NCBI GenBank assembly: GCA_964367375.1
Contig: CAYIXG010000001.1
Location: forward strand, 148,254-212,253
Origin: Candidatus Woesearchaeota archaeon
GTDB lineage: Archaea > Nanobdellota > Nanobdellia > SCGC-AAA011-G17 > UBA489
Reading direction: 5' to 3'
DNA: 64,000 nucleotides
The translations under genes and the position numbers were made by a program. How positions within the stretch are numbered: position 1 is the stretch's first letter; each line of letters opens with the position of its first letter. A model generated the notes under the pieces. It worked only from the letters and a program-made list of their open reading frames with translations. It did no database searches and had not been told where the DNA came from. Positions 25,473 through 59,525 of the stretch are shown here, piece after piece.

Positions 25473-25515
25473 AGAGAAGAAAAGAAATTGCTCCTATTTA
25501 TAGGTTTGGATGGCA

Positions 25516-25752
25516 TTATCGTTCCCACACGACTTTTCCGTTTTTTTTGACTTGACGAATACGATGGAGAGGGATATGGACTTTTGTGTCGCCTCGTTTG
25601 ATGACAATAAAATTGCCTATTCTTCCAATTTTGGTGAAGGATATTTCAAAAGTTTTTTCTGCGATTCTGTCAAAGTAGAGGAGAGTGTACTCTTCTGGTT
25701 TTAATTGTTTGTCCCAGCGGATCCTGTTAAGAAGATCGCCAATATAAGTCAT
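25516..25752 (-). CDS. small conserved hypothetical protein
   Basis: The 112-aa ORF overlaps the gatD 3' end. An internal Met (MTYIGDLL) gives a 78-aa product between gatD and gatE. Confidence 0.25.
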   Translation of the reverse strand: MTYIGDLLNRIRWDKQLKPEEYTLLYFDRIAEKTFEISFTKIGRIGNFIVIKRGDTKVHIPLHRIRQVKKNGKVVWER

Positions 25753-43522: not shown

Positions 43523-44859
43523 GGTACTTTTTTTCCGGTGTTTGCTGTCTGGTTTCTGAAGTAGTCAACAATTGTTTTTGCCCAGTTTCGCGTAGTCCCA
43601 GCAGCAAGTGTTTCTTGTAATCCTGTCAGAAACTGAGATTGATGCTGTGCTTCAGTGGCGAAATGATATGCTTGAGCAACTACAAAAAAGTCTGCAGCGC
43701 TGAGTGTTGTTAGTAATCTTGGATTAGGGATTTTTGTTGCGAGTTCGATCCAAGTAGGCTTATCTGCAGGATGAATGTAACTGTAAACATCTTTTCTGCC
43801 TATTTTTTCAGCAAGGGTAAATGCGGTTTCTCTGGGAACTCCTCCTTGTTCAAATCCGGAGGCAAGAGGAAAATAAGCAGGATTTCTGCGAAAGATGCCT
43901 GTTGCTTGATCAATGAGTGTCGAGAGAGAAAGACGAGGAAGTATTTTGGTGGCAAAGGCAAAGTAATGGAATGCACGAATGATATCTTTCTGTTCATGTT
44001 CATCTAGTTTCTTAAAAAATGGAGCAAACGTTTTGATGCGTTCTTCAGCGCCTTCGATGCATGTATGCAAAGAACTGCCTGTTTCCGCCTTCCATGCAGT
44101 AGCAAGTGTTTTGTAAGCTCTGCTATAAGAAGTTCCAAAGGTACGTAAAACAATTCCTGCTTCTAGAGGGTCTTGGTAATTCCTGAAAAGAGTGCGCCGT
44201 TTAGTTCGGGTGAGCTGCTCGTAAGCGTTAATTGTTTGTTCAGGATCATTGCCAAGGAATTGGGTAAATTCATTCATAGTCTGGGTGTGGTTTGCTGGTT
44301 TTGTTCTTTGAGAGATATAGGATGCAATCTCTGCGCGCACCCAAAGGGTAGAAATTGGTTTTGCACTAGCAATAAGTTGGTTTCGAAGATGTTCTGGAAG
44401 AATGAAAATAGTGCGTTCTGCTTCTGTCGTGCAGCTTGTAACTAAAGTATCTAAGGTTTTTTTCACTGTTTCTGGAGAATTTTTCCAAGCCACTTTCCAA
44501 AGGTAATCAAGAACTAAATGTCCTATGCCTGGAGGTACAGTTGCGAGGCTGCGAGCAAAGCGAACTGCTTCTACAGCTCCGTCAGCGAGCGTGGCTCCAA
44601 TCCTGTCCATAACCATTGGCAATTGTTCGCCGTATTTTCTGAGTTCTGGTTTGATATGGGATAATAATTCTTGGAATTCGTTGTACGTTGGACTGAGAGA
44701 TGTTGGTGGAGTATGTTTTGATCTGGTAATTTCCTGCATCGTTTCATGCACTTCTTGCATGGCTTCGTCTACCTTTTCTTCAAGTTCATCATCTTCAGAG
44801 TTTTCAGTATCAAATGGTTCGTTACCAAAGCCGAGAGAAAGGCCAAGTCTCATGTGCAT
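43519..44859 (-). CDS. hypothetical alpha-helical protein (MoxR/VWA operon member)
   Basis: 446 aa with an acidic N-terminus. Overlaps both neighbours by 4 nt. Confidence 0.35.
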   Translation of the reverse strand: MHMRLGLSLGFGNEPFDTENSEDDELEEKVDEAMQEVHETMQEITRSKHTPPTSLSPTYNEFQELLSHIKPELRKYGEQLPMVMDRIGATLADGAVEAVRFARSLATVPPGIGHLVLDYLWKVAWKNSPETVKKTLDTLVTSCTTEAERTIFILPEHLRNQLIASAKPISTLWVRAEIASYISQRTKPANHTQTMNEFTQFLGNDPEQTINAYEQLTRTKRRTLFRNYQDPLEAGIVLRTFGTSYSRAYKTLATAWKAETGSSLHTCIEGAEERIKTFAPFFKKLDEHEQKDIIRAFHYFAFATKILPRLSLSTLIDQATGIFRRNPAYFPLASGFEQGGVPRETAFTLAEKIGRKDVYSYIHPADKPTWIELATKIPNPRLLTTLSAADFFVVAQAYHFATEAQHQSQFLTGLQETLAAGTTRNWAKTIVDYFRNQTANTGKKVP

Positions 44860-44865
44860 GCCTCG

Positions 44866-46002
44866 TTAAAAATCAGTGCGCGCTGCTGCGCTTCCGATGA
44901 GGTTGTGGAATTGGGCGAGTGAGGTGACTGCGTCTCGGGTGGTGATGCTTCCCAGTGGTTTCAAGCCGAATTTGCCGTAGCAGATTTGGTCAATAACAAC
45001 ACGGCTGGCGTATACTTGGGCATATTGTGGTTCCATACCTTCGCGGACAAGAAAAGTGTACTGATCAAGTGCTGCTTTTGCAATTCTCAGTGACGGTTTG
45101 TGTAAGGGAACACGAGTAATTTCTCCGATGTCTCGCAAGTAGGTTTTGATTTCTTGTTCAAGCGCTGTCGTGCCGTGGTCTGCAAATGATCGAACAACGG
45201 TAAAGAATCTGGTGAGTGCGTGTGCAAACTCCTTTTGAGTAAGGGAGCGTGGGGGTGTTTCTCGTGCTTTTTCTGGTTTATGAAAAACAGAGTAGGTGGT
45301 AACTTCATCAGTGAGTTCGACTGGTACTATTGGTGGAAGGAAAGAGTTCCAGCGAGAGCCGTTATGGCGGAAAAGCTTTGGGAGCTTTGTTTTTGGATCA
45401 TAAGCTATTGCTCTCTTTTCAAGTTGGAGTGCTTCAGTGTTCCGTAAAGCGAGTGCTGCTTCAAGTGGAGAAGGAAGATAATCAAGATAGAGGTGTACAA
45501 ATCTGTCTGCAACGGATTCTTCAAGTTCTCGGTGGCTGAGCTTGTCGCTCGGGTTATATGATAAAACAGTCATGAAGCCGTCTGCTGCAGGAATGACAGT
45601 GCCATCTCGTCTTGTTATTCGTCTTCGGTCATCAAAGAGGGAGTTCAGTCGTTTTTGCATGCTCCCGCTTAATCGGTCAACTTCGTCTAAGTAGAGGATG
45701 CCTCCTTGCTCTGCTGCTGTTGTTGCGATTGTTGTTGTCCATCGGGTGACAGTACTTCCATTTGCGGATGCAAGTTCTGGTGCGCCAACTAAGGCAGCGT
45801 CAGTCATGTATTCGTCACAGGTGATTTCGCTGAGGGGTCTTCTGAGTAAGGTCTCGAGGCTGGTGACGAGCTCTGTCTTTCCTTGCCCAGGTGGACCTGC
45901 GAGGGCAACGTGCTGTCCGAGACTGTGCGCTAAGACAATACGTTGCACTTCATCAAGTCCTTCAGGAGTGACCTGATTCGCGATGTAACTGATGCTCTGC
46001 AT
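44866..46002 (-). CDS. MoxR/CbbQ/NorQ-like AAA+ ATPase (AAA_5)
   Basis: Walker A GPPGQGKTELV, Walker B ILYLDEVDRL. Confidence 0.7.
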   Translation of the reverse strand: MQSISYIANQVTPEGLDEVQRIVLAHSLGQHVALAGPPGQGKTELVTSLETLLRRPLSEITCDEYMTDAALVGAPELASANGSTVTRWTTTIATTAAEQGGILYLDEVDRLSGSMQKRLNSLFDDRRRITRRDGTVIPAADGFMTVLSYNPSDKLSHRELEESVADRFVHLYLDYLPSPLEAALALRNTEALQLEKRAIAYDPKTKLPKLFRHNGSRWNSFLPPIVPVELTDEVTTYSVFHKPEKARETPPRSLTQKEFAHALTRFFTVVRSFADHGTTALEQEIKTYLRDIGEITRVPLHKPSLRIAKAALDQYTFLVREGMEPQYAQVYASRVVIDQICYGKFGLKPLGSITTRDAVTSLAQFHNLIGSAAARTDF

Positions 46003-46400: not shown

Positions 46401-47339
46401 ATGAGACGAAAAATAATCAAGCAAGGAAACAATTCCTACACATTAACCATTCCTATTCACTGGATTAAGGAGCATAATCTGGACGGCAGCCAGGATGTGG
46501 AGGTGAATGAGGAAGATGGAAAACTAATGGTTGCAGTGCCATCAGAGATGAAACGGCCGGAAGTGTCATTAAATGTGGATATTAGCAAGTATAATGAGAG
46601 GACAATTAAGGTTGTGGTATTTCAAGCGTATCGGAAGGGATTTGATAAAATGATAGTGACCTATGGTGAGATGAAGCAGCTTGAGGTTGTGCGCTCTCTT
46701 GTTACCAATAGCTTGCTTGGCTTTGAGATTGTGAGCGAGGAGCAAAACAAGTGTGTCATCCAGAATATTGCAGAGCCTTCCTCTGAGAAGTTTGATATTA
46801 TTTTGAGGAAGGAAATGTTGTTGTTGAAGGAAGAAAGTCAAGAGATTTTGCAGCATCTGGAGAAGAACAAGTATGATATCAGAAGAAGGGAAGATATGAA
46901 GGTGATGTTTGACAAGTTAAACAATTTTACGAGAAGGGTGATTGTTCGGGACAAAATAGGAGGCACAAAAAATTCGTATTTTCTCTTTTATTTCACGTCA
47001 AAATTGTCATTGTTGTATCATGCCTATTTCTATTTCTACAAGGCGTATGCGCAAGAGAAGATGAAGAATGTGGACAAAGATATTAAGGAATTGCTCATTA
47101 AGGTGAATGAAAATTATGGGTTGTTATATGATGCTTTTTACAAGAAGAATTTGGATATTGCGCATCAAGTAAAGACAGGCTCTGAGGAGGCCATAAAAAG
47201 GGTTTTTGAGCTGATTGGAGAGAAAAAGGGGATGCAAAATAAGTTACTTATACATATTGCAAACATTGCGCGGGTGACTGCAATGGCATCTACCATTCTC
47301 TTTGGAATTTACTTTGCTGGTGAAGACTCAAGTAAGTAG
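46401..47339 (+). CDS. AbrB/SpoVT-domain plus PhoU-like helical domain regulator
   Basis: N-terminal swapped-hairpin motif KQGNNSYTLTIPIHWIKEHNLDGSQDVEVNEEDGKLMV. Helical C-terminal region typical of archaeal PhoU homologs. Confidence 0.5.
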   Translation: MRRKIIKQGNNSYTLTIPIHWIKEHNLDGSQDVEVNEEDGKLMVAVPSEMKRPEVSLNVDISKYNERTIKVVVFQAYRKGFDKMIVTYGEMKQLEVVRSLVTNSLLGFEIVSEEQNKCVIQNIAEPSSEKFDIILRKEMLLLKEESQEILQHLEKNKYDIRRREDMKVMFDKLNNFTRRVIVRDKIGGTKNSYFLFYFTSKLSLLYHAYFYFYKAYAQEKMKNVDKDIKELLIKVNENYGLLYDAFYKKNLDIAHQVKTGSEEAIKRVFELIGEKKGMQNKLLIHIANIARVTAMASTILFGIYFAGEDSSK

Positions 47340-47980
47340 GCGAGTTTTTTCGAGAGAGGGACAGCATCGCCTATTTTATGTTGAAGGGTGCGAATGCCTA
47401 GCGCGGCAGCAGCAGTAAGATTTCGTTCTTGGTCGTCAATAAATAAGCAGTCTTCTGGAGACAATCCGTGATCTTGAAGAATTCGTTGATATGCGTTTGG
47501 TTCTGGTTTGCGATGGCCAATTTCACAGGAGAAATAACTTCCATCAAAGAAGTCCATGTAATTATATCGTTCTCTATTTCCTCGAAGAATATCAGGATTG
47601 GTATTAGAAAGGATAAACACGCGATATCCTTCAGCTTTTAATTTTTGTGCAACATCAAGAGCATCAGGGTCTACATCAGTAATCAGCATTTCAAGCGCTG
47701 CTTGCATCGCTTTGATATTCTTTGGAGTAGGTTGCATTTTATGATGTTTCAAGACGCGAGACCAGAAATCAGTTGCTGATAATTCTCCTCGGGCGTATTG
47801 GTAGAGGGGGTTATCTGGAGCGTCTGTATAGAGGCGGAATGAGACAACAAGCTCTTCGGGTTTCAGAGCAGGATATCCAATGGATTGTGCAGCTCGGGCA
47901 ACCCGTTCCCAGTCGCTGTCTACCAAAACCTGCTCATTATCAAAAATGATCGCTTTTGGCTTGTTGTTGGTGTTTTTCAT
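47309..47980 (-). CDS. HAD-superfamily hydrolase (subfamily IA-like)
   Basis: Motif I AIIFDNEQVLVD, motif II ILSNT, motif IV FIDDQERN. Start placed at MKNTNNKPKAIIFD. Confidence 0.5.
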   Translation of the reverse strand: MKNTNNKPKAIIFDNEQVLVDSDWERVARAAQSIGYPALKPEELVVSFRLYTDAPDNPLYQYARGELSATDFWSRVLKHHKMQPTPKNIKAMQAALEMLITDVDPDALDVAQKLKAEGYRVFILSNTNPDILRGNRERYNYMDFFDGSYFSCEIGHRKPEPNAYQRILQDHGLSPEDCLFIDDQERNLTAAAALGIRTLQHKIGDAVPLSKKLAYLLESSPAK

Positions 47981-48245
47981 GGTCTTTTTACGAAAAGGCA
48001 TTTTATATGCCTTGCCGCTATAGAGAATATGCATGTTGGCTGTGTAAAATCATCAAGAAGGAAAAAGGGGAGTTTTCTCCTTTATAAGGCTTCCTATATT
48101 TTGTTACTAATAAGTGGTTACAATTAGAAAGGTTTAAAAGTAAGAAAAACCGCCAAAAAATAGACCAAACCGTGAAAATAGGAATATATTGAATAGCGGG
48201 AAGGTTTTAGTAAAAAAGGATTGAAAGTTACGTGAAAAATATTAT

Positions 48246-50171
48246 ATGGAAGCTCCTATACATCCATCGGAAGAAGAAAGATCTGGATTGTTAGCAAGAC
48301 TCAGAAACACAGGGAAGAAACTGTGGGAAAACGTTGAGCTGTATGTGGAGCAAAGAAGGCGGAAGCAAAAAGAGATGCGATTTCAAAGAGGAAGGGTAGA
48401 TTACGCATTATCATCCCTTGCAAATAGGATGCGAGTTGCAGTGTGGAACCATCCCACATTATTTACCTTAGCCACTGCAGTAACTACTGCGTTTACAAGA
48501 AAAGAGACAAATGATGAACAGATAGGCGTTGCTTTAGCATACGCTGTAGGTGCAGATTGTTTAAAATATATTATTAACAGAAATGTGCAAAAGGAGTCAA
48601 GAACTGCTGCAGAAAAAACTAATTTAGCAAAAATTATGGAGGTTGAATACTTAAACGAAATAATTCACCTTGTAAGAGAATATTACGGCCACAGAGGAGA
48701 AGTAGTGAGCATTGAGGAAGATACAGGGAAGCAGGATGGCACAGGTATTTTCAAGAGTGGCTATTCATCAAAAGTGCGGTTTAGATTTGCCGATGGAAAT
48801 ACTGCAGAAGTGTTCTATAAATATTCAGAAAAGCACGATCCAGGAAATGTAACAGCGGAGCGTGAAGGACGTTTCACAAATCTTTTACACGCTGCAGGGT
48901 TTGAATTTGTTCCACACGTGTTTATTCCATTTATGTCTAATTCAAGATTCATTAGATGGCTGAGAGGGGGCTGGAGCGATGAAGTGGAAGAAAAAGCTTC
49001 GCAACCAAATAGGGGTGTAGTATACGAATACATTGATGGAGAGACATTAGAAATGCGAGTTCGGGGAGAACACTCAAATGTTGATCAAAGAAAAATAATT
49101 CCTACAGCTACCGTATGCGAAACGTTTAGGCAGTTAGGGCAATTATACATGTTTGCAGGACAAGATAATGTGATTGGAGAGAAAGGGTTGTTTGGAGCAA
49201 GAGATGATGTTCCTCTTGAAGAGTACAGGTTCCACCATTCGCTTGTTTCTAAATTAGAAGGGGTTGGAGAAAAAGATTTTGCAAGAAGATTGAGGTTGGC
49301 GCATTTGCATACATTTAATGGTATTCCACTCACGATAGTACACGGTGATTTGCATCAAGGCAACATCATTGAAACCAGAAAAGGAAGTGTAAAGATTATT
49401 GACTGGGATAATGCAGCATTTGGCGTTCCATATGAAGATTTCTTCCATTTCGCAGTCATTTCCGATTTTGAAAGGAGCACGGATTTTGAAAAAGAAAGAA
49501 CTGCATTTGTGAAAGCGCAAGAAAAACAAGGAATTCACCTTTCTGAAGAACACTTAAAATTAATAGAGTTTGAGACATATCTGAGTTTATTCGCTCGATA
49601 TCAGCATGCGATAGTGAATGAAGAGATAAATGAAGAGTTTTGGGAGAACATGCATACTTCATGTAGGTATCTCTTAGAAGGTGCAAGAAAGTCAGTAACG
49701 CAATATGCGGATCTCACGGGAAATAGAGAATTAGCAGATAATTTTGAAAAGTTTGCTGAGAAAACTTTAGTAGAATCTATCACATCTTATAACCCATTAG
49801 CAAGCATTGCGTATGCGCACCGAGTGAATGCAAATGAAAGAAAGCTTGACAAAAGAGAAGCTGCGGTGGTAAACTTCACACGACACGCAGCCAGATTGGA
49901 AACAAGTTTACGCGCTGATCAAACATTGCGTGCAGTAGGAAGATTCGTGAAAGCAGGATTTGATATTGGATTACATTATGGCGCATATCACTTAATCAAA
50001 ACATGGGCTGAGTTGAATGCTGCAGGAAATTTGGATGGAGATGATATGAGTTTCACGACAAGGACTGTAGCAACACTAGGAGCTTTAGGAGTGTATGATT
50101 ATTTCTTCACTCCAATTCCTCGATGGATAAAGGCAGGTGTGCAGCGAGTATTCGGGAGAGAGGAGCATTAA
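48246..50171 (+). CDS. protein-kinase-like fold (APH/ChoK/CotS-type) kinase with N- and C-terminal hydrophobic extensions
   Basis: Brenner motif IVHGDLHQGNII and DWDNAAFGVPYEDF (DxD). 641 aa. Confidence 0.5.
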   Translation: MEAPIHPSEEERSGLLARLRNTGKKLWENVELYVEQRRRKQKEMRFQRGRVDYALSSLANRMRVAVWNHPTLFTLATAVTTAFTRKETNDEQIGVALAYAVGADCLKYIINRNVQKESRTAAEKTNLAKIMEVEYLNEIIHLVREYYGHRGEVVSIEEDTGKQDGTGIFKSGYSSKVRFRFADGNTAEVFYKYSEKHDPGNVTAEREGRFTNLLHAAGFEFVPHVFIPFMSNSRFIRWLRGGWSDEVEEKASQPNRGVVYEYIDGETLEMRVRGEHSNVDQRKIIPTATVCETFRQLGQLYMFAGQDNVIGEKGLFGARDDVPLEEYRFHHSLVSKLEGVGEKDFARRLRLAHLHTFNGIPLTIVHGDLHQGNIIETRKGSVKIIDWDNAAFGVPYEDFFHFAVISDFERSTDFEKERTAFVKAQEKQGIHLSEEHLKLIEFETYLSLFARYQHAIVNEEINEEFWENMHTSCRYLLEGARKSVTQYADLTGNRELADNFEKFAEKTLVESITSYNPLASIAYAHRVNANERKLDKREAAVVNFTRHAARLETSLRADQTLRAVGRFVKAGFDIGLHYGAYHLIKTWAELNAAGNLDGDDMSFTTRTVATLGALGVYDYFFTPIPRWIKAGVQRVFGREEH

Positions 50172-52067
50172 ATGACAAGAAGAAGACACACGTGGGCAGA
50201 TGAGCTGGGTGAAGAAAAAAAGAATCTGGTTCTTGATACTCTTTTATCAAAAATAGGAAGTGCTTCAAGAAAGTTTCATGAAGGACGATTTACCTTCACT
50301 ACAATAGGAGCAACATTGGGTGGATTAGATACGTTACTTTCTGGAGAGCTTGATTGGAAAGGTTTGGCATGGTTATTGGGTGGTGGATTAGCTTTCGATG
50401 CGTTAAAGGCAGGTGTTTATTACGTGAGAAACCAAGGGCAGATCAAAAAAATTAGAAACGAAAAAACAACAATTGGAAGGGTGATGGGCTCTGATTATTT
50501 AGAAGCGCTCATCACGAACATTCGAGAGTATGGATGTGCGCGAGGGGAGTGTGTGGCAATTGAAGAGCAGGTAAGCAACACAGAAGGTACAAACTTGCAC
50601 AGGGAGGGTTATACAATCTCGCTTATGTTCACGTTCGCAGATGGAACGCAAGTGCCAGCTTTTTTCAAGTACAACTACAGGCAGGGCAATGATGAGCATC
50701 CAGAGAATAATGGAAGAATAACGAGATTTTTGAGTGACAGAGGTCATTCGTTTGTGCCAAAAGTATTGAGTCCTGATATAGATGTATTAATGCAAGAACA
50801 GTTGTTTACTCTTGATAGGGAAAGAGGAACTGCTTCTCCAATAGAAGGTACAACAAACCGAGGATTGGTGTATGAATGGGTCAACGGTGCAAACTTGGAA
50901 TGGTTATTATACACGGAAAAAAATGTTGTGGTGAAAGGGAGCTTCAGGCAGAATACATTAAGTGTGAATGATATTCCTGTGGATGCACTTTTTGAGAATA
51001 TGTGGGAGGTGTATGAAGATGACTTGCGAGGATTTTTTTTACCTGCGAAAACAAGAACGTTTCACAATAGTTTAGTTGCAAAAATACAGCAAGCTTCACC
51101 AGAATTTGCATCTATAGTAGATAAGGTGCATAAAGAAACGATTACAGATGATGCATTGCTGTTGAAAGCGAGAATAATTCATGGTGATTTGCATCAAGGC
51201 AACATCATGGTAAATACAGGAGAAGTCATGACACACGGAATGTTTGGAACGCAGTTCACCGCAGCAGGGATTAAAGTATTTGATTGGGACAATGCGGAGA
51301 TTGGCATTCCTTATCAGGATTTCTTCCATTTTGCAGTTATTTCAGATTTTGAGAGAAGTGATGCATTTCCTGAAGCAAGAGCTAAATTCTTAAAAAAGCA
51401 GAAGAAAGTACTTCCTGGAGTGACTGAGGCGCAGACGAGATTGATCGAATTTGAAACCTATGTAAGTTTGCTCATGCGATATCATGCAGCAGTCGCAGAA
51501 AAAACGCTGAAGCCAGAGTTTGAGCAGAACATATTGACCTCATGCAGGTATTTGCTTGAGAAATCAAGAGCTGCAGTAGATGCGTTTGCTGCGACAACTG
51601 GAAATGATGGCATACGCACTGCATACGATCAATTTGTCAGGGAAAATCTGAGTGAAGTGGAAGCAACGCCATTTGATCAAAGTGCGAGCGTTGGCTATGC
51701 GCACACAGTTAATCATAAAGAGCGACGGATTAAAAATGGAGATTCATTAGCAGATGTGGTGCGGAAGAATCAGCAGGTCCATCAAAGAAGAATAGAGAGA
51801 AGAGTCAAGCAGACAAACCTTTATGGAAATATGCTATGGTTTGCAGCTGCATTAAACACGGCAGTCTACGCATATATAATGGGAGCGACATATGTTGGCA
51901 TGCAGGCAGGAAAGGTAAGTCAGGAGCACTTTTCTGAGGCTGCAGTGGATGGTGGGAAAGGTCTTCTTGCTATTTATGGATTGGCGTTACTTGGAAACAA
52001 CATTGATAGAATAGTAAGATGTGGGAAGCGAATGTATCACTGGTTTGCAGGGCAACGCAAATCATAG
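50172..52067 (+). CDS. protein-kinase-like fold (APH/ChoK-type) kinase, tandem paralog
   Basis: IIHGDLHQGNIM and FDWDNAEIGIPYQDFFHFAVISDFERS. Start directly abuts the upstream paralog's stop. Confidence 0.5.
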   Translation: MTRRRHTWADELGEEKKNLVLDTLLSKIGSASRKFHEGRFTFTTIGATLGGLDTLLSGELDWKGLAWLLGGGLAFDALKAGVYYVRNQGQIKKIRNEKTTIGRVMGSDYLEALITNIREYGCARGECVAIEEQVSNTEGTNLHREGYTISLMFTFADGTQVPAFFKYNYRQGNDEHPENNGRITRFLSDRGHSFVPKVLSPDIDVLMQEQLFTLDRERGTASPIEGTTNRGLVYEWVNGANLEWLLYTEKNVVVKGSFRQNTLSVNDIPVDALFENMWEVYEDDLRGFFLPAKTRTFHNSLVAKIQQASPEFASIVDKVHKETITDDALLLKARIIHGDLHQGNIMVNTGEVMTHGMFGTQFTAAGIKVFDWDNAEIGIPYQDFFHFAVISDFERSDAFPEARAKFLKKQKKVLPGVTEAQTRLIEFETYVSLLMRYHAAVAEKTLKPEFEQNILTSCRYLLEKSRAAVDAFAATTGNDGIRTAYDQFVRENLSEVEATPFDQSASVGYAHTVNHKERRIKNGDSLADVVRKNQQVHQRRIERRVKQTNLYGNMLWFAAALNTAVYAYIMGATYVGMQAGKVSQEHFSEAAVDGGKGLLAIYGLALLGNNIDRIVRCGKRMYHWFAGQRKS

Positions 52068-52117
52068 TGTGAAAGGTTTCAATAAAAGAAGAATTCTAAA
52101 CAGGAGTTATAAGCAAT

Positions 52118-53077
52118 ATGGTCATCATTTATCGTGGTAAAATTGAGGAAGTTGCACGAGAGTTGCAGAAGCATAAAGATGTGTTAGATGCGCAGTATGT
52201 GAAGATTCTCGGCAGTGAACGTGCGAAGAAGGTAGCAATAGGAGCAGAGAGATTGCTTCCTTCAGAAAGCTTTTTTGACACTCCAGAACAAGTAAAACAA
52301 GCAACTGGTGCTAATATTGAAGCGAATACACCGAATAAGATGTTGTTGGCGAGCGACACAAATATGGTGATTGGGGAAGATGGAAGAATAAGCAATAGAA
52401 AAATAAGGACTGCACCCGGATTTTATATTTCAGCAGCAGGGTTTGAACATTCTGGTTCTAAGCAGTTTACAGAGAATCCTCTAGCATCATATGTGCATGA
52501 GTTTGATCATTTTATATGGTATGCATTGCAAGAGAAGCCGTTTGCATTAATAAACATGGCTTTAGATGAAGCGTTGCAACCAAAACGAAAACCGCTTCAT
52601 CTTCCGAATTATGTTGAAGAACTGTTAGCAGCTCACCTTTCACAGGAAGAAATGTTACGGCGATTAGTCTTAGCAGTGTTTTCTGAGATAACTGAGGATG
52701 CGCATGAAAAATCAAATAGGATACTTGATCAATGGGTGTTAAGGTCAATAGGAGTGAACGTGCCTCTCGACTGGCGGGGAAAGGAAAAGGAGTATGCAGG
52801 ATTTCAGCTTCCAACAGGGCAGATCATCGGTTTGCCGGTTGGTGGAGATCAATTTAAAGGATTCAAGGATGAAGAGGTGCTTGAACGAATGATTAAATGG
52901 CAGGATCATTTTGCACCATCTCTTTCTGCGTATCGGTTTGGAGATAGAAGAGGCGTTTCTGGCAGCCCTCCCTATCTGCACAATCTTATTGAATCCTTCG
53001 GGAGCGTGAAGATATCTCGCGTGTCGCTTGTAGAGTTAAAAAGGTTATCCGCAAGAAAAAAGAAGCGGAGGGATTAG
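52118..53077 (+). CDS. hypothetical protein with HExxH (HEFDH) zincin-like motif
   Basis: 319 aa. YVHEFDHFIWYAL. Downstream of the kinase pair. Confidence 0.3.
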   Translation: MVIIYRGKIEEVARELQKHKDVLDAQYVKILGSERAKKVAIGAERLLPSESFFDTPEQVKQATGANIEANTPNKMLLASDTNMVIGEDGRISNRKIRTAPGFYISAAGFEHSGSKQFTENPLASYVHEFDHFIWYALQEKPFALINMALDEALQPKRKPLHLPNYVEELLAAHLSQEEMLRRLVLAVFSEITEDAHEKSNRILDQWVLRSIGVNVPLDWRGKEKEYAGFQLPTGQIIGLPVGGDQFKGFKDEEVLERMIKWQDHFAPSLSAYRFGDRRGVSGSPPYLHNLIESFGSVKISRVSLVELKRLSARKKKRRD

Positions 53078-53141
53078 TAAATGTGGTTTATACATATTGG
53101 ATAATAGTAATCTATTAAAACTGGTTCTTGTTCCTCTCGGA

Positions 53142-54872
53142 ATGCACCAACCAGCGCAAAAAACGAAGTATATAGTTGTTCTCGGTGGAGTGTTATCAGG
53201 CGTTGGGAAAGGTGTTGCAACGGCTTCTATTGGAAAGATTTTGAAGGAATACGGCTTGTCAGTCACTGCAATGAAGATTGATCCGTATCTGAATTTGAAT
53301 GCTGGCACCTTAAGACCTACAGAGCATGGGGAAGTCTGGGTGACTGATGATGGCGGTGAGATTGATCAGGATCTTGGCAATTATGAACGATTTCTCGGGG
53401 TTGACATTCCGAAGAAGAATTGTATCACCTCTGGGCAGATTTACAAGACAATTATTGATAAGGAGATTGCTGGCGGGTATCTAGGAAAGACAGTGCAGTT
53501 TATTCCGCACGTGCCGGATGAGGTGAAGCGCAGGATAAATGATGCTGCCGATGGATTTGAGGTGTGCTTGATTGAAGTTGGCGGAACAGTGGGCGATTAC
53601 GAGAACATTCCCTTTTTGTTTGCGGTAAAAAGTTTGGAGCGAGAGTTAGGAAAGGAAAACATGATGTATGTGCTTGTGTCTTATTTGCCTGTGCCATCTC
53701 ATGTGGGTGAGATGAAAACCAAGCCAACACAAATGGCAGTGAAGTTGTTGTCTGAGCAGGGTATTTTCCCTGATTTTATTTTGTGCCGTGCGGCAAAGCC
53801 GTTAGATGAGATACGGAGGAAGAAGATCGAGCAGTATGCAAACATTCCTGCAGAGCATGTCATTTCTGCTCCGGATGTGGATACTATTTATTCCATTCCA
53901 TTAAATTTTGAGAAGGAAAATCTGGGTGAGAAGATTATGAATCAGTTGAAGGTAACGCCAAAAAAGAAGCTGTCGTGGGATAAGTGGAAGGTGCTTGTGG
54001 ATATTTTGAGGAGCGCGCAGAAGAAGGTGCATATTGCGATGATCGGGAAATATGTGGAGAGTGGTGATTTTGTACTTTCTGATTCATACATTTCTGTGAA
54101 TGAATCATTGAAGCACGCTGCTGCAGCAATTGGGATGGGCATCACAATTTCCTGGGTGGATGCAAAGGCATTGGAGCAAGAAGAGGATATCAACCAAATG
54201 CTTGAAAAGTTTGATGGGATTGTTGTTCCTGGAGGATTTGGAGCGACAGGCGTTGAGGGGAAAATAAATGCAATTCAGTATGCACGGGAGCACAAAGTGC
54301 CCTATTTGGGGTTGTGTTATGGGATGCAGCTTGCGGTTGTTGAATTTGCGAGAAATGTGTGTAATTTGAAAGATGCGCACACAACAGAAATTAGTAAAGG
54401 CTGTGCATCTCCGGTGATTGACCTTCTTCCGGAGCAGCAGCAGGTGAAGGAGATGAGTGGCACGATGCGTCTGGGTGCGTTTGCTGCTGTGTTGAAGGAA
54501 GGCACGCAAATTGCGCGTCTGTATCAAGAGACGAAACGTGTGGAGAAAGATCAGGTGCGGTTAGAAACGCTTCGCGAGAATGGTGAAACATTGAGATTAG
54601 GGAAACTTCCAGAAAAAGGGATAGTGATCTTAGAAAGGCACAGGCATCGGTTTGAGCAAAATCCGAAGTTTGTCAAGGCATTGGAAGATAAGGGTATGGT
54701 TTTTTCTGGCTATCACGAGCGTCAGGATGGCACAAGATTGATGGAGTTTATTGAGCTTCCCGGACAAACCTTTTTGGGAACGCAAGCGCATCCGGAGTTC
54801 AAGTCGCGGTTGGAAGATCCATCGCCGTTATTTCTGGGATTTGTGGAGGCTGCTGCCAAGCAGAAAGCTTAA
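53142..54872 (+). CDS. pyrG: CTP synthase
   Basis: KYIVVLGGVLSGVGKG N-terminus. GATase catalytic GLCYGMQ. Start placed at MHQPAQK (the ORF opens at 53097). Confidence 0.9.
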   Translation: MHQPAQKTKYIVVLGGVLSGVGKGVATASIGKILKEYGLSVTAMKIDPYLNLNAGTLRPTEHGEVWVTDDGGEIDQDLGNYERFLGVDIPKKNCITSGQIYKTIIDKEIAGGYLGKTVQFIPHVPDEVKRRINDAADGFEVCLIEVGGTVGDYENIPFLFAVKSLERELGKENMMYVLVSYLPVPSHVGEMKTKPTQMAVKLLSEQGIFPDFILCRAAKPLDEIRRKKIEQYANIPAEHVISAPDVDTIYSIPLNFEKENLGEKIMNQLKVTPKKKLSWDKWKVLVDILRSAQKKVHIAMIGKYVESGDFVLSDSYISVNESLKHAAAAIGMGITISWVDAKALEQEEDINQMLEKFDGIVVPGGFGATGVEGKINAIQYAREHKVPYLGLCYGMQLAVVEFARNVCNLKDAHTTEISKGCASPVIDLLPEQQQVKEMSGTMRLGAFAAVLKEGTQIARLYQETKRVEKDQVRLETLRENGETLRLGKLPEKGIVILERHRHRFEQNPKFVKALEDKGMVFSGYHERQDGTRLMEFIELPGQTFLGTQAHPEFKSRLEDPSPLFLGFVEAAAKQKA

Positions 54873-54898
54873 AAAGAGGTCATGAAGCATTTGAGAAT

Positions 54899-55258
54899 AT
54901 GTCACCATCAGAGCAGATTATTTATGAAGTAACAAATGGAGCAGTTCCTCCTTTGTACGAGCCGCGAAATCTGGAGCGTGTTGTTTTAAGCCAAAATGGA
55001 TGGCCTAATCAGGATGGGTTTTCGAGTGATAGAAGAGGAGCATTGATATGGGCGCATCGTGAAGGAGGAGTCACGATGCTTGGGTTTCATTTGTGTGGTG
55101 TGTCCTTGCAATATGTGCATCGTCCGCATAATGGAAGTGCATCTGTGTTGTTCAAAGCGATTGGTGAGCCTGAGTACATAGATCCTGTTGTGAACAGGTT
55201 TAGAGTGTTGGAAGAGACGTTTGTGGATCTTCCAGTAATGAAAAAGGCACGAGCATAA
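54899..55258 (+). CDS. hypothetical protein
   Basis: 119-aa ORF between pyrG and dut. Confidence 0.3.
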   Translation: MSPSEQIIYEVTNGAVPPLYEPRNLERVVLSQNGWPNQDGFSSDRRGALIWAHREGGVTMLGFHLCGVSLQYVHRPHNGSASVLFKAIGEPEYIDPVVNRFRVLEETFVDLPVMKKARA

Positions 55259-55696
55259 TCATCCGGTGCTGCCAAATCCGCCGCGTGTTTTTTTTGTGAT
55301 TTCATCCACTTCTTCAAAGTCAACTTTGGTTATCTTGACGAAAACTGCTTGCGCGATGCGTTCTCCTTTTTCGATGATGACGGGCTGGTCTGCGAAGTTG
55401 TATACTTGCAGTTGTAAAACATCGTCTGGGCCGCAGTAATCCTGGTCGATGATGCCAATGCCATGAGGAATGAGCAGGTTTTTCTTTCGGGGTGTGGAGG
55501 ATCTGGGAACAAGCACAAGCATATGATCTGGTGGTGTTTCAATGATGGTGTTTAAGGGAACAAGGGCAACTGTTTTAGGAGGAATAATTACTTCTTTCCC
55601 GCTCGTGAGGTCAAATGCTGCCGCTCCTTTTGTGTGGTATTGGGGTAAAGGAATGGTTTTGTCGATGCGTTTAATGGCGGCTTTCATGGATATCAA
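55259..55696 (-). CDS. dut: dUTP diphosphatase (trimeric dUTPase)
   Basis: All five dUTPase motifs: AAAFDL, RSSTPRK, GIIDQDYCG, GERIAQ, RGGFGSTG. Confidence 0.85.
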   Translation of the reverse strand: MISMKAAIKRIDKTIPLPQYHTKGAAAFDLTSGKEVIIPPKTVALVPLNTIIETPPDHMLVLVPRSSTPRKKNLLIPHGIGIIDQDYCGPDDVLQLQVYNFADQPVIIEKGERIAQAVFVKITKVDFEEVDEITKKTRGGFGSTG

Positions 55697-55853
55697 TTGA
55701 AGTGTGAAGAATAATAAATTTTGAATTGAAGTTTATAAAGATTATGGGAATGAAAGAGTGGCAATAAATATATGCACTTTGTTGGTCGTGTTGGAAATGA
55801 TATAATTACAAAGAAGATGTGTTTAAATAGGTAAGAAAGGTGATAGAAAAAAG

Positions 55854-57605
55854 ATGCCGTTAAAAAATTTTTCTGAGGAAGAAGCAGAGAAGATTCGCGC
55901 GTTTTTGTTTACCAATCCTCATGGAGACACGAGTTTTGTGTATCCACAGCAATTAGTTGCAGGGGAAGAGCTTTCTCCATTAATGGCTGCGTATTCGCGC
56001 ACGCATATTCCTTTTCAAGACAGAGTATTGCAATTTCTTGATGTTGAGAAGCCTGAGCAAACGCGGGGTTTTCTTCCCTTCATTGATCCGCTGGTGCAGC
56101 TGTTTCGGAATGCTGATGGGTCGCTTGTTGTCTCTCGGAAGACGCGGGGGTTTAATGAGGAGTGGGTGTTGAAGCATGGGCATAGTTCAATTAAGGAGGA
56201 GACTGCCTTGTTTGGATATTGTGAAGATGTTTCTGACATCACAGGGAAGCAAATCACCGGCCATCCATTAATAAAGCCGCAGGTGAAGTCAACGCGCTAT
56301 CTTTCCTATGGGAAAGTGTTGGAGCGTTCGCTTGATGATCCAGACATACGTTCTTTACCGAATGCAGATCGTATTCTTGAGCACATTGTTTTTCTGAATA
56401 AAAGATATCTTGAAGTTGCAGAGCAGCTTGCAACATTGGTGTGGGAGCATGCAGATACGAGAGAAGCAGTTGCGTTTCTCAGAAGTCCAGCAGTGGTAGA
56501 AAGGGAAGTGAGGCGGCGTTTTGAAAAAGCAGGAAAAAGTAACCCTTCAGAAGAAGAATGGAAAAAAGAATATAGATCTGTAGAGAAAGGGGTAGCTGAT
56601 GAGGGAATAAGGAAGGATGTTGCAAAAGGCGTTCTTGATGATGCGCGGGTGTATCTTCCTGCAGTGACACGAACGTCTATCGGATTCTCTGTTGATGCGA
56701 GAACCTTAGAAGATGTTATCATAAATCTTATTTCAAGTGAAAGACAGGAAGATCAAGAAAGAGGAAATGTGCTCTGGAGAGAGGCGAGAAAGATAGCTCC
56801 AGTGCTTCTTGGAGAGAGAAGTCATGTGAAAAGGGATGAGTGGAGAAGGGCAACAGAGAAGGAGCTGAGGGTGTATGTGGAGCGTAATCTTGGCCATTGT
56901 GATAGTGAAGAGAAAAGAAGAGTGCGTTTAATCACGCCGCGAGGGATTGATATAGATTCTGATATATGGAGCGCGACGGTGGTTGCGTTCCAGTATGCTG
57001 ATGCGTCTGTGTTGGATATATATACGCTAATGACAGAGGAGCATGCTGCTGACATTCTTGAGTTGGCACATAAGCACAGATCAGATCATGATGTGCTGCA
57101 TCCTGCGATTGCGCATAGTGGGTTTATGGTTGAGTTTTTGATGGGATATCATGCGTATCGTGATGTGTTTCGTCACAGAAGAGGTTCGAGAACGAATCAG
57201 CGGTTGACAACAATGCATGGGTTTGAGGTTCCGGAAATATTCAAGGTTTTTGGGATAGATGAAAGATACAAAGAGGATATGGAGAAAGCGGCGCAGGTCT
57301 ATGAAATGGTCAGGAGACAGGCAGGGATGCAGGTTGCGGAGAAGCTCGTTCCGTTTGGAGCATTGTGTCGGTCGTTGCATTCCTGGCAGGTCAATCAGAT
57401 GGGATATGTAGGAAGGTTGAGAAGTGACATTGCAAAGGGGAATCGGTCGTATGTGGAAGTAACACGAGAGCTCATGGCTGAAGTGGGAAAAGTGCTTCCG
57501 GAGACTGCAAAATATTTGAGGTATGATACGCGAGAATATCCTTCACACCTCTGGAAGGGTGCATATGAATGGTATGATGCGACGCAACGAGGGAAGGGAA
57601 AATGA
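55854..57605 (+). CDS. ThyX-like (flavin-dependent thymidylate synthase family) protein, long tandem/degenerate form
   Basis: The C-terminal half carries FRHRRGSRTNQ (RHRxxS). The N-terminal half carries KSTRY (SxRY-like). 583 aa against about 220-250 for canonical ThyX. Confidence 0.5.
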   Translation: MPLKNFSEEEAEKIRAFLFTNPHGDTSFVYPQQLVAGEELSPLMAAYSRTHIPFQDRVLQFLDVEKPEQTRGFLPFIDPLVQLFRNADGSLVVSRKTRGFNEEWVLKHGHSSIKEETALFGYCEDVSDITGKQITGHPLIKPQVKSTRYLSYGKVLERSLDDPDIRSLPNADRILEHIVFLNKRYLEVAEQLATLVWEHADTREAVAFLRSPAVVEREVRRRFEKAGKSNPSEEEWKKEYRSVEKGVADEGIRKDVAKGVLDDARVYLPAVTRTSIGFSVDARTLEDVIINLISSERQEDQERGNVLWREARKIAPVLLGERSHVKRDEWRRATEKELRVYVERNLGHCDSEEKRRVRLITPRGIDIDSDIWSATVVAFQYADASVLDIYTLMTEEHAADILELAHKHRSDHDVLHPAIAHSGFMVEFLMGYHAYRDVFRHRRGSRTNQRLTTMHGFEVPEIFKVFGIDERYKEDMEKAAQVYEMVRRQAGMQVAEKLVPFGALCRSLHSWQVNQMGYVGRLRSDIAKGNRSYVEVTRELMAEVGKVLPETAKYLRYDTREYPSHLWKGAYEWYDATQRGKGK

Positions 57606-58252
57606 AGATAGAAATCTTGCGAAGAATTCCTTTTTCTGAATTGGAAGATATGATAAGGCGTGTGCCGTTGAAGGGAAAGACTCCTGAGGGAAAAGATATC
57701 TTGGTATATCAGCATGCGCGGATTGCGCTGAAACAGCTTGAGGCTGGTGAGGTGAATCCGACAACGTTTTATCTGGTAAGAAAGAATATGGATGTGCAAA
57801 GAGAGATACGTGCATGCTTGCGTGCAGAGCATGGCATTGACAGTCTTCAGCTTGATGGCGCGTTGGAGATTCAGAATGATCAAGGAGAGGTGTGGACATT
57901 AACGCCTCCGATTGTTGAATTCACTTCAAGGATTGTGCACTATGTTGCGCAGCAGGGGGAGAAAGAGTGTGAAAGAAATGTAAAGATTGCAATTCCTATC
58001 GTTAATGATGGTGCGCATCGGGTTGCGCTCGCAAGGGATTTAGGAGTTCCTTTTAATGCAGTGGTTATTTCTGGCGCATTGGAGGCATTTCTCTTTTATG
58101 CGCATCCGAATGCGTGGGATGAAGTGCGTTTAGTTGATGCAGTTCCTGCACAAAGAGAGGAGAAGAAGTTATACATAAGAGACGACTGTTATTTCTTGTA
58201 TCGTGATTTTGGTGTATTGGGATGCGGAGCTCCGCGGAGTCCTCACAAATAA
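57602..58252 (+). CDS. ParB/sulfiredoxin-like (ParB N-terminal NTP-binding/nuclease fold) protein
   Basis: IPIVNDGAHRVALARDLGVPFNAVVI matches the DGhHR…ArelG core of the ParB/Srx fold. Stop overlaps the next gene. Confidence 0.45.
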   Translation: MKIEILRRIPFSELEDMIRRVPLKGKTPEGKDILVYQHARIALKQLEAGEVNPTTFYLVRKNMDVQREIRACLRAEHGIDSLQLDGALEIQNDQGEVWTLTPPIVEFTSRIVHYVAQQGEKECERNVKIAIPIVNDGAHRVALARDLGVPFNAVVISGALEAFLFYAHPNAWDEVRLVDAVPAQREEKKLYIRDDCYFLYRDFGVLGCGAPRSPHK

Positions 58253-58253
58253 A

Positions 58254-59521: not shown

Positions 59522-59525
59522 ATGG

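What the first reader, a model, noticed from the sequence alone, without database searches (positions are those of the whole stretch)
48246..53077. Tandem about 640-aa APH/choline-kinase-fold paralogs followed by an HExxH protein, immediately upstream of pyrG
Two adjacent paralogous genes (the second begins the base after the first ends) encode kinase-fold proteins with intact HGDLHQGNI catalytic loops and DxD motifs, and with extra N- and C-terminal regions containing hydrophobic helices. They share the identical string FHFAVISDFERS but are diverged at the nucleotide level, so this is an old duplication rather than an assembly artefact. APH-fold kinases of this type phosphorylate small molecules such as aminocyclitols, choline, sugars or MTR, which fits the downstream amidino-cyclitol-like cassette. 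Next is a 319-aa protein with a zincin-like HEFDH motif.
Basis: partly seen in the sequence, partly recalled or inferred. Interest (0 to 1): 0.6.

Follow-up and report, generated by a model that had tools for sequence, protein, structure and literature searches.

The report
Twin archaeal kinases with partner phosphatase
Two adjacent, anciently duplicated kinase genes in a tiny groundwater archaeon belong to a very rare, uncharacterised branch of the antibiotic/choline-kinase fold whose constant partners are a phosphatase and a DNA-binding regulator just upstream, not the neighbouring HExxH protein, pyrG or the sugar-modifying genes downstream.

Summary
K1 (48246-50171) and K2 (50172-52067) are back-to-back paralogs, 35% identical (E 3e-77). 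Both have an intact HGDLHQGNI loop, an IDWD metal site and a beta-3 lysine. Both pass Pfam APH (PF01636) and no other model. A 319-aa protein with a conserved HEFDH motif and then pyrG follow.

The organism is a DPANN archaeon: GatD/GatE are present and all relatives come from Woese-/Pacearchaeota.

The kinase family is tiny: 7 clusters among 5.8 billion proteins, and 38 clusters at E<=1e-30 among 1.84 billion representatives. It has no characterised ortholog.

Across 8 loci its recurring neighbours lie upstream of the reported coordinates:
- a HAD-IA phosphatase (47309-48034, minus strand), adjacent in 5 loci and fused to the kinase in one protein;
- a 312-aa AbrB/'phosphate uptake regulator'-like protein (46401-47339), adjacent in 6 loci.

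pyrG, the HExxH protein and the dehydrogenase/aminotransferase cassette never recur beside the kinase, so the aminocyclitol link is not supported.

The HExxH protein is a separate orphan family of 8 proteins. Its predicted structure is confident but matches nothing.

Best reading: a kinase/phosphatase pair, membrane-tethered in many members, acting on an unknown hydroxyl substrate. It is a new variant of a known fold and of moderate interest.

The parts
46401..47339 (+). 312-aa regulator-like protein: N-terminal AbrB/SpoVT/MazE DNA-binding domain plus a roughly 250-aa helical domain (JGI name 'phosphate uptake regulator', COG0704). It is the most constant neighbour of the kinase family.
   Evidence: PF04014 31 bits against a cutoff of 24.7. 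Orthologs 39-46% identical sit beside the kinase in the window, L004, L010, L011, L013 and L097. The family has more than 250 members in Woese-/Pace-/Nanoarchaeota, several named 'phosphate uptake regulator' by JGI. Pfam PhoU reaches only E 0.35, in 1 of 5 members.
47309..48034 (-). HAD-IA phosphatase, divergently transcribed from K1. It is the conserved enzymatic partner of the kinase. Motif I reads F-D-N-E-W (DxE instead of DxD).
   Evidence: PF00702 73 bits. Best NCBIfam hits are YihX-type glucose-1-phosphatase (84 bits, below cutoff) and HAD-SF-IA-v3 (above cutoff). Orthologs 34-44% identical are adjacent to or overlapping the kinase gene in L004, L008, L010 and L013. P0154 is a single 884-aa HAD-kinase fusion.
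48035..48245 (.). 211-bp AT-rich intergenic region between the divergent HAD and K1 genes. It is the presumed shared promoter and regulator-binding region.
   Evidence: Sequence read. A/T-rich TATA-like stretches (TTTATAA, TTTAAAA) are present. No statistically supported motif was found. The function is inferred.
48246..50171 (+). K1, a 641-aa APH-fold kinase. Catalytic loop HGDLHQGNI is at nt 49341-49367 and IDWD Asp386-Asp388 at nt 49401-49409. The beta-3 lysine is K192.
   Evidence: AF2 model with core pLDDT 80-98. Foldseek matches to APH/ChoK structures.
50172..52067 (+). K2, a 631-aa paralog of K1 whose start codon abuts the K1 stop codon. Catalytic loop is at nt 51180-51206 and DWD at nt 51282-51290. 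It has a roughly 20-aa insert between the catalytic loop and the DWD motif. Its C-terminal helices are more hydrophobic than those of K1.
52118..53077 (+). 319-aa orphan protein with an invariant HEFxH motif (nt 52496-52510) and invariant E197 and D204. It is a neighbour but not part of the kinase module.
   Evidence: Only 8 homologs among 5.8 billion proteins. Alignment A3. Confident AF2 model, pLDDT 87, with no structural match. Its neighbours elsewhere are all different.
53097..54872 (+). pyrG (CTP synthase). The likely true start is the ATG at 53144. It is housekeeping and not a conserved neighbour of the kinases.
   Evidence: It is absent from the flanks of all other kinase loci.

Best explanation
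K1 and K2 are tandem paralogs of a small clade of APH/choline-kinase-fold phosphotransferases restricted to DPANN archaea. Both keep every residue needed for ATP-dependent phosphoryl transfer to a hydroxyl group. Back-to-back stop and start codons point to co-expression, and a K1-K2 hetero-oligomer is an inference from that. The kinase domain is flanked by family-specific N- and C-terminal helical extensions. In many members the C-terminal pair is hydrophobic enough to anchor the enzyme to the membrane. In this window K2 is marginal and K1 is weak by that measure. The functional unit is the kinase(s) plus the HAD-IA phosphatase encoded divergently upstream. The adjacent AbrB/PhoU-like DNA-binding protein probably controls them. 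Together they would set the phosphorylation state of a small substrate, or of a membrane-proximal one such as a sugar, amino-alcohol or lipid/glycan head-group. The substrate is unknown. Shown: fold, catalytic integrity, paralogy, rarity, archaeal origin, conserved gene neighbourhood, and a HAD-kinase fusion. Inferred: membrane tethering, hetero-oligomer, small-molecule substrate, and control by the AbrB-like protein. The HExxH protein, pyrG and the downstream dehydrogenase/aminotransferase genes are bystanders.
For: Fold and catalytic residues: PF01636 is above cutoff for both proteins. K192, H366-G-D368, N373 and D386-W-D388 are invariant in 7 family members, and the HGDLHQGN/IDWD pattern is kept in nearly all of 30 members. 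Foldseek gives probability 1.0 to APH(9), LicA, ChoK, Mph, HSK2 and others at 12-16% identity. Distinct clade: there are 7 clusters among 5.8e9 proteins. At E<=1e-30 there are 38 of 1.84e9 representatives, followed by a sharp fall to generic APH hits. Only two GTDB species carry true members, both Woesearchaeota. HAD coupling: the HAD is adjacent or overlapping in the window, L004, L008, L010 and L013. The HADs form one ortholog group. P0154 is a HAD-kinase fusion. Regulator link: the AbrB-like protein is adjacent in 6 of 8 loci. Tandem duplication recurs in L013. The nearest out-group proteins carry two APH domains in one chain. C-terminal hydrophobic peaks of 1.6 or more occur in about 16 of 30 members. 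Archaeal host: GatD/GatE, ATP-dependent DNA ligase and archaeal-type ProRS are present.
Against: No substrate can be deduced. The structural neighbours cover antibiotics, choline, sugars, steroids, amino acids and peptides about equally. A kinase plus a phosphatase acting on the same group would be a futile cycle, so either they act on different positions or molecules, or the pair is regulatory. K1's own terminal helices are not convincingly transmembrane, and AF2 confidence in both termini is below 60. Two kinase loci (L011, L097) show no HAD in the flanks available, and one locus (L008) shows no regulator. The PhoU identity of the regulator's C-terminal domain rests on JGI names, not on a significant HMM hit.
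Confidence: 0.5

Rival explanations
1. Protein-kinase signalling module. The APH-fold kinases phosphorylate Ser/Thr on a protein, for example the neighbouring AbrB/PhoU-like regulator. The HAD enzyme is the cognate protein phosphatase. The terminal helices serve as a membrane sensor.
For: The regulator is the most constant neighbour (6 of 8 loci). Weak hits occur to SrkA/YihE-type Ser/Thr kinase (NF008738) and to Pkinase/RIO models. The structural neighbours include the peptide kinase LxmK and CotS-like YtaA. Other copies of the regulator gene sit next to a second family of large proteins with an ePK-like HxDxKxxN...DFG motif. From general knowledge, archaeal AbrB-type regulators are known phosphorylation targets in Sulfolobus.
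Against: The HAD belongs to the capped IA subfamily, and its best hits are small-molecule phosphatases such as YihX and nucleotidases. No protein-kinase model reaches its cutoff. All top structural matches but one are small-molecule kinases.
Confidence: 0.2
2. The kinases, with a phosphatase, phosphorylate an aminocyclitol intermediate of a streptidine-like amidino-cyclitol pathway encoded downstream (dehydrogenase, aminotransferase, amidinotransferase-like protein).
For: The window contains a GFO/IDH/MocA dehydrogenase whose best NCBIfam hit is inositol 2-dehydrogenase at 103 bits, below cutoff. It also contains a DegT/StrS-type aminotransferase and a 365-aa protein with a weak DDAH-like C-terminus, E 1.7e-5. 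From general knowledge, streptidine synthesis uses kinase and phosphatase steps.
Against: The cassette is 8 kb away. It is separated from the kinases by pyrG, dut (minus strand), thyX-like, ParB-CE, tmk, a HAD gene and dcd (minus strand). None of its genes occurs in the flanks of seven other kinase loci. The dehydrogenase/aminotransferase pair fits nucleotide-sugar modification equally well (UDP-GlcNAc 3-dehydrogenase 88 bits, PseC 177 bits).
Confidence: 0.06
3. Nucleoside or nucleotide salvage. The kinase/HAD pair acts on pyrimidine nucleosides or nucleotides, which would explain the position beside pyrG and the pyrimidine cluster.
For: pyrG, dut, thyX-like, tmk and dcd all lie within 8 kb. 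The HAD has sub-threshold hits to pyrimidine 5'-nucleotidases. A MazG gene follows the HAD in L004.
Against: Apart from the MazG gene in L004 noted above, no nucleotide-metabolism gene lies next to the kinase in the other loci. To my knowledge APH-fold nucleoside kinases are not a known class.
Confidence: 0.07
4. Antibiotic-resistance phosphotransferases (aminoglycoside or macrolide), or a component of an anti-virus defence system.
For: The Pfam family is named APH. There are weak Mph, APH(9) and capreomycin-kinase hits. Weak TCAD9 and PD-T4-6 hits cover the catalytic loop only.
Against: Every resistance model scores 13-21 bits against cutoffs of 390-680. The 640-aa architecture with terminal helices is unlike the roughly 300-aa resistance enzymes. 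No PADLOC model matches beyond 25 residues. No viral contig carries the family.
Confidence: 0.03

Closest known systems
APH / choline-kinase (eukaryotic-like kinase) superfamily, Pfam PF01636; structures such as APH(9)-Ia (3i1a), LicA (4r7b), Reut_A1007 (3dxp)
   Same: Bilobal kinase fold, beta-3 lysine, HxDxxxxN catalytic loop, a metal-binding Asp in the IDW-D motif, and a helical C-terminal substrate subdomain.
   Different: About twice the length. It has family-specific N-terminal (about 125 aa) and C-terminal (about 100 aa) helical or hydrophobic extensions. Identity to any solved structure is only 12-16%. It is restricted to DPANN archaea and is coupled to a HAD phosphatase.
Membrane-associated sugar or lipid head-group kinases of the same superfold (Kdo kinase KdkA, LicA choline kinase, 25-hydroxysteroid kinase)
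   Same: Kinase fold, and probable action at or near the membrane on a hydroxyl group. There is a weak KdkA hit at E 0.027, and Foldseek hits to LicA and 25-HSK.
   Different: No model reaches its cutoff, and the substrate context (LPS, teichoic acid, steroid) is absent in DPANN archaea. The resemblance is one of mechanism only.
Bifunctional kinase/phosphatase pairs (for example PFK-2/FBPase-2; FN3K with the HAD phosphatase MDP-1), cited from general knowledge
   Same: A kinase and a phosphatase are genetically coupled, and once fused (P0154).
   Different: The folds or families differ, and no shared substrate is known. The FN3K Pfam model does not hit K1 or K2.
Archaeal AbrB-PhoU 'phosphate uptake regulator' transcription factors (COG0704)
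   Same: The 312-aa neighbour has the AbrB/SpoVT N-terminal domain, a helical C-terminal domain of the right size, and the JGI name. PhoU-family transcription factors are common in archaea (PMC6316755).
   Different: The Pfam PhoU model is not significantly matched, and there is no link to pst genes in these loci.
Zincin (HExxH) metallopeptidases, for the 319-aa protein
   Same: HEFxH is invariant and lies within predicted helix H121-137. An invariant Glu lies 66 residues downstream in the next long helix, and beta-strands precede the motif helix.
   Different: There is no Pfam, NCBIfam, PDB-sequence, Foldseek-PDB or BFVD match to any zincin.

Membership tests
APH phosphotransferase family (Pfam PF01636) | HMM score above the gathering cutoff | tested here: met
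   K1 scores 43 bits and K2 31 bits against a cutoff of 23.2.
APH phosphotransferase family (Pfam PF01636) | Catalytic loop HxDxxxxN, a downstream metal-binding Asp, and a beta-3 Lys | tested here: met
   HGDLHQGN, IDWD and K192 are invariant in alignment A1 and kept in nearly all of 30 members.
APH phosphotransferase family (Pfam PF01636) | Bilobal kinase fold | tested here: met
   The AF2 core has pLDDT 80-98. Foldseek gives probability 1.0 and TM 0.5-0.59 (normalised to target) to APH, ChoK, Mph and CcrZ structures.
Choline/ethanolamine kinase (PF01633) | HMM above cutoff | tested here: not met
   K1 scores 20.8 bits against a cutoff of 29. K2 has no hit.
Methylthioribose kinase MtnK (TIGR01767) | Equivalog HMM above cutoff | tested here: not met
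   16.3 and 13.4 bits against a cutoff of 275.
Homoserine kinase II / FN3K / CotS-CotI | Family HMM above cutoff | tested here: not met
   No Fructosamin_kin or ThrB2 hit. CotI scores 13.6 bits against 550. These families appear only as low-rank structural neighbours.
Aminoglycoside/macrolide resistance kinases (NCBIfam APH(9), Mph, Cph) | Exception or equivalog HMM above cutoff | tested here: not met
   13-21 bits against cutoffs of 390-680.
HAD-IA phosphatase (neighbour 47309-48034) | HAD HMM above cutoff, plus motifs I-IV | tested here: met
   PF00702 scores 73 bits and TIGR01509 63.6 bits against 29.4. Motifs LSN(T/S), RKPE and FIDD are present. Motif I is the variant D-N-E.
AbrB-PhoU phosphate uptake regulator (neighbour 46401-47339) | AbrB/SpoVT domain | tested here: met
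   PF04014 scores 31 bits against a cutoff of 24.7, and all 5 aligned orthologs hit it.
AbrB-PhoU phosphate uptake regulator (neighbour 46401-47339) | PhoU domain (PF01895) | tested here: inconclusive
   Only E 0.35 in 1 of 5 members, and no PDB sequence hit. JGI names several homologs 'phosphate uptake regulator', and one homolog carries a COG0704/K02039 label in another source, metaclust.
Zincin metallopeptidase (319-aa protein) | Conserved HExxH motif | tested here: met
   H127, E128 and H131 are invariant in 8 homologs.
Zincin metallopeptidase (319-aa protein) | Zincin fold or HMM similarity to a peptidase family | tested here: not met
Known anti-phage defence systems (PADLOC) | Match to a defence protein model | tested here: not met
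   Only 25-residue catalytic-loop matches, E about 1e-3.

The most novel reading that the evidence does not exclude
The conserved trio is the AbrB/PhoU-like regulator, the HAD phosphatase and one to three large kinase-like proteins. The kinases belong either to this APH-type family or to a second, unannotated family with an ePK-like HxDxKxxN...DFG motif. The trio could be a previously unrecognised DPANN-specific phospho-relay or metabolite-sensing system at the membrane. It might sense or process a host-derived compound or phosphate status and control transcription through the regulator. That would be a new archaeal signalling architecture rather than an ordinary metabolic kinase.
Probability: 0.15. 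Interest if true: 0.65.

Novelty: new variant of a known kind. Interest (0 to 1): 0.4.

Why it matters
DPANN archaea have minimal genomes and depend on hosts, so genes they keep, duplicate in tandem and fuse are likely to matter for that lifestyle. This finding defines a very rare, uncharacterised kinase clade with a fixed phosphatase partner and a fixed regulator neighbour. That gives a concrete three-gene module to test biochemically. It also corrects the annotation logic: the kinases should not be read as part of pyrimidine metabolism or an aminocyclitol pathway. Separately, the HExxH protein is a confidently foldable orphan with no structural relative in the libraries searched, which makes it a candidate new metal-dependent fold.

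Tried and rejected
- The 590-aa gene upstream of the kinase in L004 is not a detectable paralog of the kinase by BLAST or by the family HMM. It belongs to a second family ('family B'). Profile-profile comparison with the kinase family aligns only the catalytic loop, at E 0.01 and probability 4%.
- The 232-aa genes near the kinase in L008 and L010 are not related to the HExxH protein or to each other.
- A metagenome scan added only one partial member, L097. A scan of viral contigs found no member of the kinase family and no member of the regulator family.
- A putative shared promoter motif, AAAGGTTT, occurs upstream of K1 and of the HExxH gene. It is not enriched: 8 occurrences against 4.8 expected.
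- Profile searches of the regulator and of family B against PDB sequences returned nothing.
- The PADLOC defence search was negative.
- A literature search found no description of this family.
- No tRNA or Rfam element is present in the window.
Full report
**1. What is in the sequence**

The window carries ORFs at exactly the reported coordinates (translations):
- K1, 48246-50171, 641 aa.
- K2, 50172-52067, 631 aa.
- A 319-aa ORF, 52118-53077.
- pyrG, from 53097.

K2's ATG follows K1's TAA with no gap (TAAATG). A purine-rich GGGAGAGAGGAG stretch lies just upstream, inside the K1 3' end.

Both kinases contain HGDLHQGNI (aa 366 in K1, aa 337 in K2) and DWD (aa 386 in K1, aa 371 in K2). They share the 14-residue string DFFHFAVISDFERS. 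The DNA encoding it is identical at 36 of 42 positions, and the longest exact nucleotide match between the two genes is 26 nt.

Overall K1 and K2 are 35% identical over 465 residues, E 3e-77. The same three-gene arrangement occurs on three independent assemblies of Hainich groundwater 0.1-µm-filtrate samples.

**2. Host**

The window encodes GatD and GatE, an ATP-dependent DNA ligase and a ProRS with the archaeal/eukaryotic C-terminal domain. Every named relative of the kinases, of the regulator and of the HExxH protein comes from Woesearchaeota, Pacearchaeota or Nanoarchaeota. This is a DPANN archaeon.

**3. Classification of K1 and K2**

Pfam APH (PF01636) is the only model above its cutoff: 43 and 31 bits against 23.2. 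Choline_kinase, EcKL, Pkinase, RIO1, ABC1 and TCAD9 are all below cutoff.

No NCBIfam equivalog comes near its cutoff. This covers ThiK, CcrZ, Mph, SrkA, APH(9), MtnK, glucosamine kinase, Cph, CotI and KdkA. All these hits cover only the catalytic loop.

An alignment of the seven clusters found among 5.8 billion proteins shows these positions invariant:
- the Gly-rich QEGTG turn;
- K192;
- H366-G-D368-x-H-x-G-N373;
- D386-W-D388;
- a strongly conserved C-terminal helical subdomain (PYxDFFHF, LIEFETY, SC[KR]YLLE).

An AF2 model has a confident core, pLDDT 80-98 for residues about 130-560. The termini are low-confidence.

Foldseek places the core in the APH/ChoK fold with probability 1.0, but at only 12-16% identity. 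The neighbours are a putative APH (3dxp), LicA, APH(9), YtaA, Rv3168, LxmK, choline and ethanolamine kinases, Mph, homoserine kinase II, maltokinase, 25-hydroxysteroid kinase and others. None stands out. A profile search of PDB sequences gives the same picture.

Both proteins are therefore predicted to be active ATP-dependent phosphotransferases of the APH superfamily, without a characterised ortholog.

**4. Rarity and shape of the family**

An exhaustive HMM search of 1.84 billion representatives found 38 clusters at E<=1e-30 and 49 at E<=1e-10. Below that come only generic APH catalytic-loop matches.

Among 185,579 GTDB species, only two Woesearchaeota carry true members. A scan of JGI metagenomes added one partial member. 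Viral contigs have none.

Across 30 members the HGDLHQGN/IDWD pattern is almost universal.

The regions flanking the kinase core are family-specific:
- The N-terminal region contains two short Gly/Ala-rich helices. The second carries an invariant Asp.
- The C-terminal region contains two hydrophobic helices.

Kyte-Doolittle 19-residue maxima reach 1.6-2.1 in the C-terminal region of about 16 of 30 members. K2 reaches only 1.35 and K1 only 0.92. Membrane anchoring is therefore plausible for the family, marginal for K2 and doubtful for K1. If K1 and K2 associate, K2 might supply the anchor, but that is inference.

The nearest out-group proteins are single chains with two APH domains. Tandem duplication also recurs in L013, with genes of 663 and 699 aa. 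Paired kinase domains thus appear to be a recurring theme.

**5. Gene neighbourhood, the decisive evidence**

I compared the window with seven other loci: L004, L007/L012, L008, L010, L011, L013 and L097.

A HAD-IA hydrolase is adjacent to the kinase or overlaps it by a few bases in L004, L008, L010 and L013. In the window it is the divergent upstream gene, 47309-48034 on the minus strand.
- These HADs are 34-44% identical to one another.
- They share the unusual motif I, F-D-N-E-W.
- The window's second HAD (58868-59521) is unrelated, at 20% identity.
- One family member, P0154 (884 aa), has this HAD fused to the N-terminus of the kinase. This Rosetta-stone fusion argues that the two enzymes work together.

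A 312-aa protein with an AbrB/SpoVT N-terminal domain lies next to the kinase(s) in 6 of 8 loci. In the window it is at 46401-47339.
- Its family is much larger, with more than 250 clusters, all from DPANN-type archaea.
- Several members are named 'phosphate uptake regulator' by JGI, and one homolog carries the COG0704/K02039 label in the metaclust source.
- The Pfam PhoU model is not significantly matched.

Two further copies of this regulator gene were inspected (L095, L096). There it sits beside one to three large proteins (581-669 aa) with no Pfam annotation, and in L095 also beside a HAD gene. These large proteins belong to a second family, of which L004 has one directly upstream of its kinase. 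Family B ends in an invariant HxDxKxDNW ... DFGS motif. That looks like a protein-kinase catalytic core, but it aligns to the APH family only weakly.

By contrast, pyrG, the HExxH protein and the GFO/IDH/MocA, DegT and DDAH-like genes occur in none of the other loci' flanks. Those flanks reach 8-10 kb in L004, L008 and L013.

**6. The HExxH protein**

It has 8 homologs among 5.8 billion proteins, one of them from a Pacearchaeota MAG. HEFxH, E197, D204 and a GFYIS strand are invariant.

AF2 gives a confident model: pLDDT 87, pTM 0.87. Beta-strands precede the helix that carries HEFDH, and a long helix carries E197. That order is compatible with a minimal gluzincin.

However, nothing matches:
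- no Pfam or NCBIfam hit;
- no PDB sequence hit;
- no Foldseek hit against PDB or BFVD, best E 0.37 and 0.49;

Its neighbours elsewhere are dCMP deaminase, RpiB, ThrRS and another class-II aaRS. It is never next to a kinase. It is an independent orphan family, and its zincin nature is unproven.

**7. The downstream region**

After pyrG come these genes:
- a dUTPase, on the minus strand;
- a 583-aa ThyX-like protein;
- a ParB-CE-domain protein;
- thymidylate kinase;
- a second HAD;
- dCTP deaminase, on the minus strand.

Only then come three further genes:
- a GFO/IDH/MocA dehydrogenase, with sub-threshold hits to both iolG and UDP-GlcNAc 3-dehydrogenase;
- a PseC-like aminotransferase;
- a 365-aa protein with a weak DDAH-like C-terminus.

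But this cassette fits nucleotide-sugar modification equally well. It is 8 kb from the kinases, beyond genes on the opposite strand, and it is not syntenic with the kinase anywhere else.

**8. Mechanism**

These steps are shown:
- two intact APH-fold kinases with contiguous stop and start codons;
- a dedicated, orthologous HAD-IA phosphatase, once fused to the kinase;
- a constant AbrB-type DNA-binding neighbour;
- C-terminal hydrophobic helices in much of the family.

These steps are inferred. The kinases, possibly as a K1-K2 pair at the membrane, phosphorylate a hydroxyl group on a small or membrane-proximal molecule. The capped HAD removes a phosphate from the same compound or a derived one. 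The AbrB-like protein controls the divergent promoter.

The capped IA-type HAD and the dominance of small-molecule kinases among the structural neighbours favour a metabolite substrate over a protein substrate. The protein-kinase/regulator reading remains a serious rival, at about 0.2.

Antibiotic-resistance and defence-system readings are poorly supported.

**9. Verdict**

This is an uncharacterised, DPANN-restricted variant of the APH fold with a new architecture and a conserved phosphatase/regulator partnership. Interest is moderate. No paper in the searchable library describes it.

Noticed in passing
L004:8207-9979, L096:6915-8660, L095:7696-12933: This is a second, Pfam-blank family of 580-670-aa proteins ('family B'). 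They start with M-x-LE-x-L and end with an invariant H-x-D-x-K-x-D-N-W ... D-F-G-S motif that looks like a protein-kinase catalytic core. They sit next to the same AbrB/PhoU-like regulator, with up to three tandem copies, and next to a HAD gene in L095.
   Followed up: partly
P0154 (884 aa; no window coordinates): A natural fusion protein: a DNE-type HAD phosphatase at the N-terminus and a kinase of the K1/K2 family at the C-terminus.
   Followed up: partly
window 53097-60086: A dense pyrimidine-nucleotide cluster: pyrG, dUTPase (55259-55696, minus), a ThyX-like protein (55854-57605), a ParB-CE-domain protein (57602-58252), thymidylate kinase, a HAD gene and dCTP deaminase (minus). The ThyX-like protein is unusually long at 583 aa and matches the Thy1 model in two stretches.
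   Followed up: no
window 60223-63565: Three genes in a row: a GFO/IDH/MocA dehydrogenase (iolG-like or UDP-GlcNAc 3-dehydrogenase-like), a PseC/DegT-type aminotransferase, and a 365-aa protein. The last has only a weak DDAH (guanidino-modifying) C-terminal match, E 1.7e-5. This is either a sugar/cyclitol amination cassette or glycan modification.
   Followed up: partly
window 41582-46002 (minus strand): An apparent operon: a MoxR-like AAA_5 ATPase (378 aa) followed by two orphan proteins (446 and 646 aa) with no Pfam, NCBIfam or PADLOC match.
   Followed up: no
window 47309-48034 and orthologs (alignment A4): The kinase-linked HADs have motif I as D-N-E (Glu at the +2 position) instead of the canonical DxD. 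This is conserved in all six orthologs.
   Followed up: partly
window 52118-53077; L092:7395-8906: The HExxH orphan lies next to pyrG in the window and next to a dCMP/cytidine deaminase in a Pacearchaeota genome. The other three contexts (RpiB, ThrRS, a class-II aaRS) do not involve pyrimidine genes, so this is probably coincidence.
   Followed up: yes
P0173, P0174, P0178, P0184, P0187, P0188: The closest relatives outside the family are 620-1000-aa proteins with two APH domains in one chain, several with sub-threshold TCAD9 hits.
   Followed up: partly
window 24054-27077 (minus strand): GatE and GatD (the archaeal Glu-tRNA(Gln) amidotransferase) are adjacent. They were useful as a domain-of-life marker for the contig.
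   Followed up: yes
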